Origin: a virus
Lineage: Duplodnaviria > Heunggongvirae > Uroviricota > Caudoviricetes
Length of the DNA stretch: 39,640 nt
IMG/VR virus record: IMGVR_UViG_2563366929_000005
Reading direction: 5' to 3' (one strand)
The translations under genes and the position numbers were made by a program. Within the stretch, counting starts at the first letter, position 1; each line of letters starts with the position of its first letter. Positions 1 through 7,644 of the stretch are shown one piece after another. The notes beneath the pieces are model-generated. The model was not told the origin of the DNA and ran no database searches. It saw nothing but the letters and a program-made list of their open reading frames with translations.

Positions 1-1236
1 ATGGCGCTGTCTGATGCGTGGTTGCGTTCAGTCGTTGGAAAGGAACGTGATAAGGTTTTGGTTAAATCCGATCGTGATGGTCTGTCTGTCAGAGTATCAC
101 CGAAAGGTCGCGTAGTGTTCCAATATCGTTATCAATGGGCAGGGAAAGGTGAGCGCCTTGATATCGGAACTTACCCGGCAACTGGATTAAAAGAGGCCAG
201 AGAAGAAGTTATCCGTCTCCGTGGTGAACTCGAGTCAAACCGCAATCCACGATTAGTCAAGCAGGCTGAAAAACGAAAAGCTACTGAAGCCATGACGGTA
301 GAGTCTGTGATCCGTGCCTGGTATGAAGCATATTGTGTAAAAAATAAAAAAGGTTCTGAACAGATACTCCGCTCGTTTGAGCTGCACCTGTTCTCTAAAA
401 TCGGGAATATCCCTCACGATGCAGCTACATTGCATGATTGGTTAGAAGTCCTGGAGCCTCTTAGCACCAAGACTCCAGCAATAGTAGACCGATTGCTAAT
501 TAACGCAAAGCAGGCCCATGTCTGGGCGTATAAGAGAAAGCTCATTGAAACTCGCCCACTGTCGGATATCACGGGTAAAGATATGGATATCCGTAAAGGT
601 CAGAAAAAACGGTTTCTGACACATGATGAAATTAACATCCTTTATGCTGCGATCGATGGTTCTCGAATGGTTCCTAAATACCGAGCCTTCATTAAACTAT
701 TGCTGCATTTTGGTTGCCGTAGTTCAGAGCTAATTACTGCTAGGGTGGATGATTTTGATTTCATAAATAAGGTATGGACTGTACCACCAGAACGACATAA
801 GACTGGGGACATAACAGGCGAACCGCTAAAGCGGCCCATTATTGAACCGGTTGAAGAGCTTATAAAATACGCTATCTCTATGAACAACGGTTCCGATATG
901 CTTTTTACTAAGGAAGGAAGCAGGGAGCCAGTTGGTCGGACATCATTGCAGTCGCTGCCTTACAATTTAATGCAGTTCGCATGGCGACGTTTGGGGTATC
1001 AATTTCCTCATTGGTCTCTTCATGATTTGAGACGAACAGCACGAACAAACTTTTCTGATCTTACTGCTCCTCATATTGCTGAAATAATGCTCGGTCATAA
1101 ACTGCCAGGTGTATGGCAAGTTTATGATAAGAGCGATTATCTAGAAGAACAGCGTAAAGCTTACTGGGCATGGTGGGAGAGGGTTGAATCGATCGTTACT
1201 TGTACTGACTTAATCTCCAACGGACAGTTTGCGTAG
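1..1236 (+). CDS. int: Tyrosine integrase, P4-like (DUF4102-type N-terminus)
   Basis: 411-aa ORF. N-terminus (LSDAWLRS..DGLSVRVSPKGRVVFQYRY) is typical of P4-family integrases. C-terminus has HDLRRTARTN (HxxR) and a terminal Tyr region (GHKLPGVWQVYDKSDY). Confidence 0.95.
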   Translation: MALSDAWLRSVVGKERDKVLVKSDRDGLSVRVSPKGRVVFQYRYQWAGKGERLDIGTYPATGLKEAREEVIRLRGELESNRNPRLVKQAEKRKATEAMTVESVIRAWYEAYCVKNKKGSEQILRSFELHLFSKIGNIPHDAATLHDWLEVLEPLSTKTPAIVDRLLINAKQAHVWAYKRKLIETRPLSDITGKDMDIRKGQKKRFLTHDEINILYAAIDGSRMVPKYRAFIKLLLHFGCRSSELITARVDDFDFINKVWTVPPERHKTGDITGEPLKRPIIEPVEELIKYAISMNNGSDMLFTKEGSREPVGRTSLQSLPYNLMQFAWRRLGYQFPHWSLHDLRRTARTNFSDLTAPHIAEIMLGHKLPGVWQVYDKSDYLEEQRKAYWAWWERVESIVTCTDLISNGQFA

Positions 1237-1394
1237 CCAGAGCGTAATCATATCTGCCAGTCCGCTGCGGATACCTTGTGTACTGGGTTTTTAGCCAGAC
1301 TACGTTAACCGGTAGCTTCAGTATTTGGGGGGGCGGCAGGAGTTTGATGGTTTATTGGGTTACTGTGGGACTAAGGATGTAGGGATGCCAATCA

Positions 1395-2528
1395 ATGAAT
1401 TATGAAAAATATCATAGCACAAACAGAAGCAAGGGTTTGCGAACCTTCTGCTACTTAATTTATTATGTGCAGGTGATTTTTAATGTGATGAAGTGTTTTA
1501 TGACTCGCGGAAACTTTGATTTTATAAACTCTAACGTGGTTTTCTCAGAAGCCGATAAGTCATTGTGGATTGATCTCATTAACACCGATTGTATTTGGTA
1601 TGATATGATAATTAATCCTCCTGATGATATAAGAACAAATAAGATAATAAAGAACTATCTCAGAATTATGGAAAAATATACGAGGGAAAGCTGTGAAAAG
1701 AGATTTATTTATTTCTTAGGTTCAAGAAAAAAAGTAAGGTTTTCAACCAAGAAACAGCCTAGGTATAACCCATTCACAAAAAATATAGTATTCACTCTGT
1801 TGATTGGCAAAGAAGAGCGAAAGCTTCGGATAAAATATTCCTTTTGCACGTTTACGCAGAATGGGGTAGTGAAGGTAACTCCAAATGTTAGAGTAACTGA
1901 GAAGTTTCTCTACATTGAATATGAAAATGGCAATTTATGTGTGATGTCAGTTCATGACTTCGTAAACGGACATTATATTGATTTAGGAATTCATACAGAA
2001 GTGCATTACGTAGGATATACACGTCATCCGCATCGGCGCCCTGTTGATTTTATTCACCGTGGCTTATCAAAGATGCTGTATAGCGTTTCAAATGACGATA
2101 ATGATTTTTTTGTTTGTTTTAGTATATTTAATCCAAGGATTATATCTCTGAATAATAAATGTAATGTGGTCTTTAATATTTCAAATTCTCTACTGGATGA
2201 AATTGATGTTGATAATGAGGGGAGAATTATTGAAAACTGCTTAATACGTTACTTTGATCCTAAGCTTCAAGATGATGACAAGGAAAGTAAAAGGTCAGAT
2301 TTAAATAAAATGTTTATGGACCTGGTGGAAAATAAAAAAATTAAAAAAATATACGTTAATTTTCAATATGAAAGGAATAATGAGTATTTCTGCTTTTACT
2401 CTAAAGTTGTTCCGCCGAAATTTCATCATTTCTTTGTGTTGGATTTTTCTGATGGCAAGATAAATATTGATAGAGACCAGGATATGATGACTCAGATGGC
2501 ATTGTGTATGGGGTATTATAATTATTAA
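1395..2528 (+). CDS. AT-rich orphan protein with a central GIY-YIG-like nuclease motif (candidate defence or homing-type cargo)
   Basis: 377-aa ORF, visibly much lower GC than int or xis. Motif string GHY-x10-YVGYT-x4-RR-x5-H ... EGRIIENCLIRYFDPKLQ (aa about 192-292) resembles GIY-x10-11-YIG..R..H..E..N. The start codon is uncertain (Met1, Met32 or Met36). Confidence 0.65.
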   Translation: MNYEKYHSTNRSKGLRTFCYLIYYVQVIFNVMKCFMTRGNFDFINSNVVFSEADKSLWIDLINTDCIWYDMIINPPDDIRTNKIIKNYLRIMEKYTRESCEKRFIYFLGSRKKVRFSTKKQPRYNPFTKNIVFTLLIGKEERKLRIKYSFCTFTQNGVVKVTPNVRVTEKFLYIEYENGNLCVMSVHDFVNGHYIDLGIHTEVHYVGYTRHPHRRPVDFIHRGLSKMLYSVSNDDNDFFVCFSIFNPRIISLNNKCNVVFNISNSLLDEIDVDNEGRIIENCLIRYFDPKLQDDDKESKRSDLNKMFMDLVENKKIKKIYVNFQYERNNEYFCFYSKVVPPKFHHFFVLDFSDGKINIDRDQDMMTQMALCMGYYNY

Positions 2529-2737: not shown

Positions 2738-2932
2738 TTACTCAATAATTCCAGCAAATCTGTATATTTTGCGTGATGCCCATTTATTTGGGCAGGATTT
2801 GATATCAGGATCTGGAAAATCAGGCCTGTATTTCTGGCCAGTTCTCCTGTTTACGCTGTTCCAGCGAAGAACAGTCGATACTGAAACGCCACAGAAGTCG
2901 GCGACTTGTTTAGTTGTCATTAAGTTGTTCAT
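2738..2932 (-). CDS. xis: Excisionase / AlpA-family HTH DNA-binding protein
   Basis: 64 aa. MTTKQVADFCGVSVSTVLRW is an AlpA/MerR-type HTH. It is the last gene of the leftward operon next to int, and its start abuts the stop of the upstream gene. Confidence 0.8.
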   Translation of the reverse strand: MNNLMTTKQVADFCGVSVSTVLRWNSVNRRTGQKYRPDFPDPDIKSCPNKWASRKIYRFAGIIE

Positions 2933-7149: not shown

Positions 7150-7644
7150 ATGACCAGAGACGATTATAAATTTTATGTTCACTACTCTTATGTATTGGAG
7201 AAGATGAATTACACGTTGTTAACTCGCATTGATAAATTAATAACGTTGATGTTAATCGTTCTCGGTTTTTCAGTTTTCGCCCCGTACAGTAATTTATTTA
7301 TTTTCGGTTTGTTTGTTGCCGTACTTTCGGTTCTTCAGTTGGTCTATCAGTTTGGCCAAGAGGCTGGAATGTCTAAAGAGCAAGCGAGGCATTACAAAAG
7401 ACTGCTGATTGAGTCTGATACCCTTCCTGAAGATCAGTTGCAAGCTAGGTATTTAAAAATCCAAGATACTGATAGTAATCCATGGAAATCACTTGAACGA
7501 GCGGCTTTCATTCGGGCCTGTATTTTTGCTGGTGTTCCAACTAAGTACGATTTAACAACCAAAGAAAAATTTATAGCTTGGTGTGCGGGAGATCTACCTC
7601 TAGAGAATGAACTAACGGATATTAATGATGACCAACAAGCATAA
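7150..7644 (+). CDS. Two-TM helical-hairpin membrane protein (SLATT-like topology), candidate superinfection-exclusion or abortive-infection effector
   Basis: 164 aa. TM1 is LITLMLIVLGFSVFA and TM2 is LFIFGLFVAVLSVLQLVY, separated by a 4-aa loop and followed by an amphipathic soluble tail. The gene is AT-rich, on the opposite strand to the early-left operon, and has its own terminator downstream. Confidence 0.7.
   Translation: MTRDDYKFYVHYSYVLEKMNYTLLTRIDKLITLMLIVLGFSVFAPYSNLFIFGLFVAVLSVLQLVYQFGQEAGMSKEQARHYKRLLIESDTLPEDQLQARYLKIQDTDSNPWKSLERAAFIRACIFAGVPTKYDLTTKEKFIAWCAGDLPLENELTDINDDQQA

What the first reader, a model, noticed from the sequence alone, without database searches (positions are those of the whole stretch)
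1395..2528. Very AT-rich orphan gene between int and xis with a cryptic GIY-YIG-like core
A 377-aa ORF with far lower GC than int and xis sits in the int-proximal cargo slot of the prophage, a common site for defence and moron genes. Reading by eye, aa 192-292 contain GHY-x10-YVGYT, then RR, then H, and about 55 residues later EGRIIENCLIRYFDPKLQ. This matches the spacing logic of GIY-x10-11-YIG..R..H/Y...E...N nucleases. The flanking N- and C-terminal regions match nothing I recognise. The gene could be a single-gene nuclease-based anti-phage or anti-plasmid system, or a free-standing homing-endonuclease-like gene. The latter usually carries the GIY-YIG domain at the N-terminus, which this one does not.
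Basis: partly seen in the sequence, partly recalled or inferred. Interest (0 to 1): 0.7.

Follow-up and report, generated by a model that had tools for sequence, protein, structure and literature searches.

The report
Orphan prophage gene, likely anti-phage nuclease
An AT-rich, uncharacterised gene next to the integrase of an E. coli prophage belongs to a rare stand-alone protein family that sits among anti-phage defence genes in many bacteria and carries a nuclease-like (GIY-YIG-type) motif, so it is a plausible but untested new single-gene phage-defence protein.

The parts
1500..2528 (+). The gene proper: 342-aa protein (RefSeq WP_225092812.1; the 377-aa form is UniProt A0A193M1C9), member of phrog_7779
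   Evidence: start supported by the family-wide N-terminal MxRG
1395..1499 (+). 35-codon upstream extension of the ORF, probably untranslated
   Evidence: Not covered by phrog_7779 and absent from homologues. PGAP start is at 1500.
1237..1499 (+). Spacer between int and the gene, with a sigma-70-like site TTGCGA-18-TATTAT at 1437-1466 that could be the gene's own promoter
   Evidence: The number of promoter-like sites is not above the shuffled expectation, so this is only a candidate.
1701..1715 (+). R-F-I-Y71-F strand. Y71 is lost together with the YVG/R/H/E set, which makes it a candidate for the missing 'GIY' tyrosine.
   Evidence: (strand 69-77); the splice test was inconclusive
1737..1994 (+). 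[not shown]
2004..2063 (+). H-Y170-V-G172-Y-T174-x2-P177-x2-R180-x5-H186-x-G188: the conserved GIY-YIG-like 'YIG...R...H' segment. The Y-to-R spacing is 10, as in I-TevI Y17-R27.
2103..2105 (+). D202, the most conserved residue of the family (97%). It is retained even in members that lost the motif.
2184..2270 (+). N229 plus the helix E240-G-R-I-I-E245...Y251-F252...Q257: candidate catalytic Glu / metal-site helix
2400..2435 (+). C-terminal conserved S301...H310-x-F312 in a small beta module. It is retained in motif-lost members, so it is structural or a second site.
1..1236 (+). Context: tyrosine integrase with Arm-DNA-binding domain. The prophage sits at the yjjG/prfC site.
2738..2932 (-). 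Context: 64-aa HTH (HTH_17/MerR-like, sub-threshold) excisionase-like gene that bounds the slot
   Evidence: annotated 'DNA-binding protein' in some genomes

Best explanation
The gene at 1500-2528 is a horizontally acquired, stand-alone accessory gene (a 'moron') in the integrase-proximal cargo slot of a lambdoid/CPS-53-like prophage. Its product most likely protects the lysogen from other phages or mobile DNA.

Proposed mechanism (inferred, not shown): a single compact protein carries a divergent GIY-YIG-type phosphodiesterase site. That site is built from Y170 (the 'YIG' Tyr), R180, H186, a Glu of the E240/E245 helix, N229/Q257 and probably Y71 from an upstream strand. The beta-rich module (aa ~80-165) and the N- and C-terminal parts would provide target recognition or regulation. 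On infection the protein would cut invading nucleic acid, or the cell's own in an abortive-infection mode.

Shown: the gene is real and conserved; the family is stand-alone; it is associated with defence genes; the slot is variable; and one discrete set of conserved polar residues is co-lost. Inferred: nuclease chemistry, GIY-YIG ancestry and the anti-phage phenotype.
For: - **Real, conserved, single-architecture family.** 47 homologues at E down to 1e-231. 216 representatives in an exhaustive search, all about 300-345 aa with no fusions.
- **No conserved neighbour.** None recurs in about 50 loci.
- **Defence neighbourhood.** Robbsia has BrxR, BilABCD, the gene, then 2 RVT_1 genes. Among 150 ORFs within +-2 genes there are SngA, AriAB (1.9e-193), DitA/B, QatC, AbiEii, PD-Lambda-3_B, CBASS TRIP13/effectors, MADS and PDC-S05. 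Klebsiella has type I R-M plus ScoMcrA-HNH. Salmonella has Dcm/DUF4928/Vsr on a conjugative element. Proteus has ABC-3C plus an integrase. One Pseudomonadales locus has CcdAB/PIN.
- **Variable slot.** The slot between the same int and DUF551/yfdR at yjjG/prfC alternatively holds AbiU (2.6e-111) or three other orphan genes.
- **Foreign composition.** GC is 0.32 against 0.50 for the window.
- **Motif.** YVGxT-x5-R-x5-H is invariant in A1, with the same Y-to-R spacing (10) as I-TevI.
- **Co-loss.** In 14/97 members lacking Y170/R180/H186, residues Y71, N229, E240, E245 and Q257 are also lost (kept 0.07-0.36). R76, R80, D202, Y251, F252, S301, H310 and F312 are kept (0.93-1.0).
Against: - No experiment exists, and no paper mentions the protein.
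- The window protein and the main-clade consensus give no PF01541 hit. The best natural consensus scores 18.2-18.6 bits, below the 22.6 cutoff.
- hhalign is non-significant against the T4 set (P 0.025), the TevI/EndoII set (P 0.014) and a 128-sequence Seg-type GIY-YIG profile (P 0.37).
- Foldseek finds nothing against PDB or BFVD.
- There is no conserved Tyr at the canonical GIY position. The alternative Y71 is about 100 residues away, and the splice test did not separate it from a scrambled control.
- The putative core does not fold on its own (pLDDT 60).
- Defence association is guilt by association. Some loci (Arcobacter, Budviciaceae, Serratia) show no recognisable defence neighbours.
- PADLOC, which includes Uzume, PD-T4-3 and PD-Lambda-1, gives no hit.
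Confidence: 0.5

Rival explanations
1. It is a defence or inter-MGE conflict protein, but the conserved site is not a GIY-YIG nuclease. In this reading the protein is a new fold with different chemistry (another hydrolase, a nucleotide- or NAD-directed enzyme, or a non-enzymatic sensor/effector), and the YVG..R..H resemblance is convergent.
For: - The confident AF2 model has no significant structural neighbour.
- All profile tests for GIY-YIG are sub-threshold.
- The core does not fold autonomously.
- The most conserved residues (D202, R76, R80, H310) lie outside the GIY-YIG-like set and persist when that set is lost.
- The defence context is the same as for the main hypothesis.
Against: - PF01541 is the only Pfam family that recurs.
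- The Y-to-R spacing, the downstream His and the acidic helix match the GIY-YIG pattern.
- These residues are lost as one set.
Confidence: 0.27
2. It is a prophage accessory gene whose role is not immunity. It could be a lysogenic-conversion or fitness factor, a toxin-like addiction module, or a DNA-processing enzyme that serves the element itself (for example recombination or repair).
For: - The int-proximal slot of such prophages also carries non-defence morons (established knowledge, e.g. O-antigen modification genes in Sf6/P22-like phages).
- Several loci show no recognisable defence neighbours.
- Toxin-antitoxin genes lie nearby in one locus.
Against: - Defence proteins are strongly represented among immediate neighbours in many unrelated taxa.
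- AbiU occupies the identical slot in another strain.
- There is no conserved partner such as an antitoxin.
- The family occurs in non-phage islands as well as prophages.
Confidence: 0.15
3. It is a free-standing homing-endonuclease-like selfish gene that spreads by cutting empty sites.
For: It has a GIY-YIG-like motif, an AT-rich foreign composition, and a position between conserved phage genes.
Against: - There is one copy per genome, and all 62 copies are chromosomal.
- Homologues sit in many unrelated bacterial islands rather than next to one cognate target gene.
- There is no NUMOD/IENR/HTH DNA-binding tail, and the architecture is unlike the 120 Seg/Tev-type proteins retrieved.
- The slot holds unrelated alternative cargo, typical of a defence hotspot.
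Confidence: 0.05

Closest known systems
GIY-YIG nuclease superfamily (Pfam PF01541 / clan CL0418; I-TevI, T4 EndoII, UvrC)
   Same: - A conserved Y-V/I-G-x-T strand is followed by an Arg exactly 10 residues after the Tyr, as in I-TevI Y17/R27, and then by a His.
- A conserved Glu-bearing helix lies downstream, followed by Asn/Gln.
- PF01541 is the only recurrent weak Pfam hit (9/97 members).
   Different: - There is no conserved Tyr 10-11 residues upstream of YVG. The only co-varying Tyr (Y71) is about 100 residues upstream.
- The core sits in the middle of a 342-aa compact protein and does not fold alone.
- All profile and Foldseek scores are below significance.
- The Glu lies 70-75 residues after the YIG Tyr, against 58 in I-TevI.
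PD-T4-3 / CMoRE (single-protein type IV restriction enzyme with an N-terminal GIY-YIG domain and a C-terminal 5hmC sensor; PMC12923530)
   Same: It is a single-gene system of E. coli mobile elements, with a (putative) GIY-YIG-type catalytic site joined to a domain of otherwise unknown fold. The expected logic is the same: sensor plus nuclease in one polypeptide.
   Different: - No sequence match to the PADLOC PD-T4-3 model.
- CMoRE has a canonical, separately folding N-terminal GIYxY-YIG domain joined by a flexible linker. Here the motif is internal and integrated.
- The target and trigger are unknown here.
Uzume (UzuA) and PD-Lambda-1, other single-gene systems reported to contain a GIY-YIG-like domain (bioRxiv 10.1101/2024.10.26.620412; DefensePredictor table)
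   Same: Both are single-gene defence systems. In a UzuA representative the GIY-YIG (SegE-type) domain is also internal or C-terminal (residues ~186-282).
   Different: - No PADLOC hit to either model even at E<=10.
- UzuA's domain is recognised at 99% HH probability as SegE_GIY-YIG. This family shows no similarity to a Seg-type profile (P 0.37).
AbiU (AIPR family) and other cargo of the same prophage slot
   Same: It occupies exactly the same position (int | cargo | xis/DUF551 | yfdR at yjjG/prfC) in E. coli YJ4, and it is a single-gene abortive-infection protein.
   Different: The sequence and size are unrelated (566 aa, AIPR domain).

Membership tests
GIY-YIG nuclease superfamily (PF01541 / CL0418) | 'GIY' tyrosine in strand beta-1, 10-11 residues upstream of the YIG tyrosine | tested here: not met
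The family consensus at these positions is 'x'. An alternative Tyr (Y71, RFIYF) co-varies with the site, but it is about 100 residues away and the splice test was inconclusive.
GIY-YIG nuclease superfamily (PF01541 / CL0418) | 'YIG' motif (Y-I/V-G) in strand beta-2 | tested here: met
   Y170-V-G172 is invariant in A1 and 85-89% conserved in A2, rising to 99% in motif-intact members. It lies in predicted strand 166-174.
GIY-YIG nuclease superfamily (PF01541 / CL0418) | Catalytic Arg about 10 residues after the YIG tyrosine, followed by His/Tyr | tested here: met
   R180 is at Y170+10, the same spacing as I-TevI Y17-R27 read from the T4 record. H186 follows. Both are invariant in A1. hhalign aligns R180 with the EndoII Arg.
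GIY-YIG nuclease superfamily (PF01541 / CL0418) | Catalytic Glu in a downstream helix and a metal-site Asn about 15 residues later | tested here: inconclusive
   E240 and E245 lie in helix 237-252, with N229, Q257 and a consensus N260. All are conserved and co-lost with Y170/R180. No profile alignment reaches this part; PF01541 hits stop at profile position 50 of 78.
GIY-YIG nuclease superfamily (PF01541 / CL0418) | Significant profile match to the family model | tested here: not met
   The window protein gives no hit. 9/97 members give weak hits, best E 1.8e-4. The best natural consensus scores 18.2-18.6 bits against a cutoff of 22.6. hhalign P values are 0.014-0.37.
GIY-YIG nuclease superfamily (PF01541 / CL0418) | GIY-YIG fold (three-stranded sheet flanked by helices) in a structure comparison | tested here: inconclusive
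   [not shown]
Known single-gene GIY-YIG defence systems (PD-T4-3/CMoRE, PD-Lambda-1, Uzume) | Match to the system's HMM (PADLOC-DB 2.0) | tested here: not met
   0 PADLOC families even at E<=10.
GIY-YIG homing endonucleases (Seg/Tev type) | N-terminal catalytic domain plus a C-terminal DNA-binding module (NUMOD/IENR/HTH); insertion next to a cognate target gene in phage genomes | tested here: not met
   The motif is internal. No NUMOD or related Pfam hits were found. There is no similarity to a 128-sequence Seg/Tev profile. There is one chromosomal copy per genome in varied bacterial islands.
Anti-phage defence system (operational definition) | Genomic association with known defence genes or defence hotspots | tested here: met
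   This is qualitative: an exact per-locus enrichment statistic could not be computed with the tools.
Anti-phage defence system (operational definition) | Protection against phage when expressed | not testable with these tools
   This needs plaque or EOP assays. No published test was found.

The most novel reading that the evidence does not exclude
The family is a previously undescribed single-protein immune effector with a new overall fold. In this reading a GIY-YIG-type active site is assembled discontinuously. The 'GIY' tyrosine (Y71) comes from a strand about 100 residues upstream, and a DUF971-like beta module is inserted into the canonical GIY-YIG hairpin, probably as a built-in sensor or regulator. 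A natural subset of members (about 14%) has shed the catalytic set while keeping a second conserved site (R76, R80, D202, H310).
Probability: 0.3. Interest if true: 0.7.

Novelty: new variant of a known kind. Interest (0 to 1): 0.55.

Why it matters
If confirmed, this would add a compact (342-aa) single-gene anti-phage system that no current defence catalogue detects: PADLOC, Pfam and NCBIfam all miss it. It is present in about 1% of complete E. coli genomes and scattered across Gamma-, Beta- and Epsilon-proteobacteria. It would also show an unusual, structurally embedded version of the GIY-YIG nuclease site. Finally, it marks the int-xis slot of yjjG/prfC prophages as a defence hotspot whose other orphan occupants (331, 239 and 413 aa) are further candidates. 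The value is moderate rather than exceptional, because many candidate single-gene nuclease defences are already known or predicted.

Tried and rejected
1. **377-aa reading.** Rejected in favour of the start at 1500.
2. **'GHY' as the first half-motif.** Rejected because it is not conserved.
4. **Foldseek.** PDB and BFVD gave no significant hits. AFDB50 was not available.
5. **PDB sequence and profile searches.** These returned only chance hits.
6. **hhalign against real GIY-YIG alignments built from T4 and a large database search.** Results were marginal or null. The retrieved set was dominated by Seg-type enzymes that lack the Arg, so it was a poor probe.
7. **Splicing the RFIYF strand onto the YVG segment to test the 'split GIY-YIG' idea.** The real strand scored best for the main consensus, but a scrambled Tyr strand scored higher for clade 2, so the test does not discriminate.
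8. **Multi-gene system.** Rejected because no neighbour family recurs.
9. **PD-(D/E)XK or HNH readings of the conserved residues.** Considered by eye and dropped. There is no (D/E)xK after D202, no beta-beta-alpha-Me spacing and no supporting hit.
10. **Weak NNH2 (NACHT N-terminal helical) hit.** At E 0.05, and in only 2 of 97 members, it was treated as chance.
11. **Literature and accession searches.** Searches for the protein, phrog_7779 and phage PhiR63_1 found nothing.

Full report
**Observation**

The window carries ORF 1395..2528 (+), 377 aa. GC is 0.320 for the gene, against 0.447 for the integrase (1-1236), 0.415 for the small HTH gene at 2738-2932 (-) and 0.502 for the whole window.

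The upstream gene is a tyrosine integrase with an Arm-DNA-binding domain. The downstream one is a 64-aa HTH_17/MerR-like excisionase-type protein, followed by DUF551. So the description of the gene's position is correct.

**Gene boundaries**

phrog_7779 (342 positions, function unknown) matches aa 36-377 end to end at E 1e-246. PGAP annotates a 342-aa protein, WP_225092812.1, which corresponds to window 1500-2528. Homologues begin at the aligned M-x-R-G, with M1 present in 92 of 97 members.

A sigma-70-like site (TTGCGA-18-TATTAT, 1437-1466) lies just upstream of ATG 1500. Such sites are no more frequent here than in shuffled sequence. No terminator-like site follows the stop codon.

**What is known about the protein**

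Nothing is known. Pfam, NCBIfam and PADLOC give no hit. PDB sequence and profile searches give only chance hits. No paper in the library mentions its accessions, the PHROG or the matching phage record. It does not appear in the stored, truncated supplements of the DefensePredictor study, either by accession or by peptide string.

The DNA occurs in 62 of 5,426 complete E. coli genomes, always once and always chromosomal, mostly at 99% identity or more. It also occurs in one phage record, PhiR63_1 from ECOR13. The 90% cluster has 753 member sequences. The 342-aa and 377-aa forms asked about were each seen on at least 1,000 contigs, which is the counting limit.

**The family**

A word-indexed search found 47 relatives. 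An exhaustive profile search of 1.84 billion representatives found 216 with E<1e-3, of which 125 have E<1e-30. All full-length members are about 300-345 aa, and no fusion to another domain was seen.

Members occur in Enterobacterales, Vibrio, Halomonas, Pseudomonas, Burkholderiales and Campylobacterales, with a few in other phyla. All-against-all comparison of flanking ORFs in about 50 loci found no neighbouring gene family present in more than 5 loci. This is therefore a stand-alone gene, not part of an operon-encoded system.

**Context**

The prophage sits at the yjjG/prfC site. In other E. coli strains the same site, the same integrase family and the same DUF551/yfdR side enclose different cargo:
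- a 566-aa AIPR protein that matches PADLOC AbiU at 2.6e-111 (strain YJ4);
- a 331-aa orphan on the opposite strand (Rb-3, UTI89);
- a 239-aa orphan (FHI_NMBU_10);
- a 413-aa orphan (11PC).

This is the signature of a cargo or defence hotspot.

Elsewhere the homologues lie in the following settings:
- Robbsia: between BrxR-BilABCD and two reverse-transcriptase genes.
- Klebsiella: next to a type I R-M system and a ScoMcrA-like HNH protein.
- Salmonella: next to a Dcm methylase, DUF4928 and Vsr on a conjugative element.
- Proteus: next to an ABC-3C system on an integrase-bearing island.
- A Pseudomonadales genome: next to CcdAB and a PIN protein.

A scan of 150 ORFs lying within two genes of homologues in 44 genomes gave strong PADLOC matches. 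These included SngA, AriAB (1.9e-193), DitA/DitB, QatC, AbiEii, PD-Lambda-3_B, CBASS TRIP13 and nuclease effectors, MADS proteins and PDC-S05. By my rough count at least about 15 of the 150 are defence proteins; the tool does not give an exact per-protein count.

A few loci (Arcobacter, Budviciaceae, Serratia) show nothing recognisable. The guilt-by-association case for a defence role is good but qualitative.

**Structure**

With the 42-sequence alignment, AlphaFold2 gives a confident single-body model (pLDDT 90.2, pTM 0.88). Its elements, in order:
- an N-terminal helical part;
- a strand at 69-77;
- a beta-rich stretch up to about residue 150;
- helix 151-157;
- strand 166-174 (HYVGYT);
- helix 187-195;
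- a long hairpin at 201-228;
- helices 237-252 and 255-279;
- a small C-terminal beta module.

A model of residues 141-282 alone collapsed (pLDDT 60). The putative core is therefore not an autonomous domain. The overall fold has no close known relative.

**Is the core GIY-YIG?**

Evidence for:
- The segment H-Y170-V-G172-x-T174-x2-P177-x2-R180-x5-H186-x-G188 is invariant across 42 sequences down to 31% identity. So are D202, N229, E240, Y251, F252 and Q257.
- The Tyr-to-Arg spacing of 10 equals that of I-TevI (Y17, R27), read from the T4 record.
- When 97 diverse members were scanned one by one against Pfam at E<=10, PF01541 (GIY-YIG) was the only family hit by more than two members. It was hit by 9, with best E 1.8e-4.
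- On a sub-clade consensus the hit covers profile positions 13-50, which is the YIG-Arg-His part.
- hhalign against I-TevI plus EndoII aligns YVGYT..R180 with EndoII YIGKT..R.

Evidence against:
- All these scores are sub-threshold: 18.2-18.6 bits against a cutoff of 22.6, and hhalign P values of 0.014-0.025.
- The window protein and the main-clade consensus give no hit.
- A 128-sequence profile of bona fide Seg/Tev enzymes gives nothing (P 0.37). Those enzymes mostly lack the Arg, so they are a poor probe.

**Co-loss analysis**

14 of the 97 members lack Y170, G172, R180 and H186. In those 14, retention of seven other conserved residues is 0.07-0.43, against 0.75-0.99 in the remaining members. 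The seven are Y71, T174, G188, N229, E240, E245 and Q257. In contrast, W33, R76, R80, G103, D153, F154, D202, Y251, F252, S301, H310 and F312 are retained at 0.86-1.0.

The protein thus has one discrete, dispensable set of polar residues that matches the GIY-YIG catalytic inventory (two Tyr, Arg, His, Glu, Asn/Gln). It also has a second conserved set that is structural or forms another site.

The set includes Y71 of the strand R-F-I-Y-F, which suggests that strand supplies the missing 'GIY' tyrosine, with the beta-rich module inserted in the hairpin. I tested this by splicing that strand onto the YVG segment. For the main consensus the real strand scored best against PF01541 (22.3 bits, against 13.5-17.3 for controls and no hit without a strand). 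For clade 2 a scrambled Tyr-containing strand scored higher (25.1 against 22.7). The test is therefore inconclusive. The 14 sequences come from only a few sub-clades, so they are not independent events.

**Comparison with known systems**

Single-gene defence systems with GIY-YIG domains exist. PD-T4-3/CMoRE is a type IV restriction enzyme with a separately folding N-terminal GIYxY-YIG domain and a C-terminal 5hmC sensor. PD-Lambda-1 and Uzume are the others. This protein matches none of their models and differs in architecture.

It works, at most, like them: sensor and nuclease in one polypeptide. It is not a member of those families. It also fails the formal membership tests for PF01541 on score and on the first half-motif.

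**Verdict**

The defence-cargo interpretation is well supported by context. The GIY-YIG interpretation is plausible (roughly even odds) but not established. The homing-endonuclease alternative is unlikely.

My estimates are about 0.7 that the gene is a defence or conflict gene and about 0.5 for the full statement (defence through a divergent GIY-YIG-like nuclease site). It is best classed as a new variant of a known kind, the single-protein nuclease-type defence. There is a real chance (about 0.3) that it represents a new fold with a discontinuously assembled GIY-YIG site.

Noticed in passing
window 7150-7644 (+): A second low-GC (0.378) orphan ORF of 164 aa lies between yfdP and the cI-like repressor. 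It has two hydrophobic, membrane-like segments and no Pfam hit. Its position next to the repressor is typical of superinfection-exclusion or moron genes. PGAP annotates it as a hypothetical protein (WP_001513551.1).
   Followed up: partly
L056 2091-3086 (-), L057 2010-2729 (+), L059 1909-3150 (+): Three other orphan proteins (331, 239 and 413 aa) occupy the same int-xis slot in other E. coli strains. None has a Pfam or PADLOC hit. A fourth alternative in the slot is AbiU (L055 1981-3681). The orphans are further candidate defence genes.
   Followed up: partly
alignment A2 (family members such as P0105, P0117, P0124, P0140, P0145, P0147, P0170, P0176): About 14% of family members have lost the whole Y71/Y170/R180/H186/N229/E240/E245/Q257 set. 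They keep R76, R80, D202, Y251-F252, S301 and H310. They may be catalytically dead or re-purposed paralogues.
   Followed up: partly
L001 4470-4538 (just left of window position 1): A 69-nt pseudo-CDS fragment lies between yjjG and the integrase in every strain examined. It is presumably the remnant or duplicate of the 5' end of the target gene (prfC) at attL. I did not verify this.
   Followed up: no
hit H22 (NZ_CM128544.1, E. coli MMC-J-0091): In one genome the region is interrupted by an IS1 family transposase: the match is split into two pieces spanning 2,281 bp instead of 1,504 bp.
   Followed up: no
L038, L041, L053 (Pantoea eucrina, Providencia sp., Enterobacter bugandensis): These three loci share a syntenic block of at least eight flanking gene families around the homologue. 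This suggests one mobile island carries the gene between genera.
   Followed up: no
L002 (phage PhiR63_1) 2851-3216: In the only phage record with this gene, the xis/DUF551 side is replaced by a different 121-aa hypothetical gene placed directly before yfdR. The right-hand boundary of the slot is therefore also mosaic.
   Followed up: no
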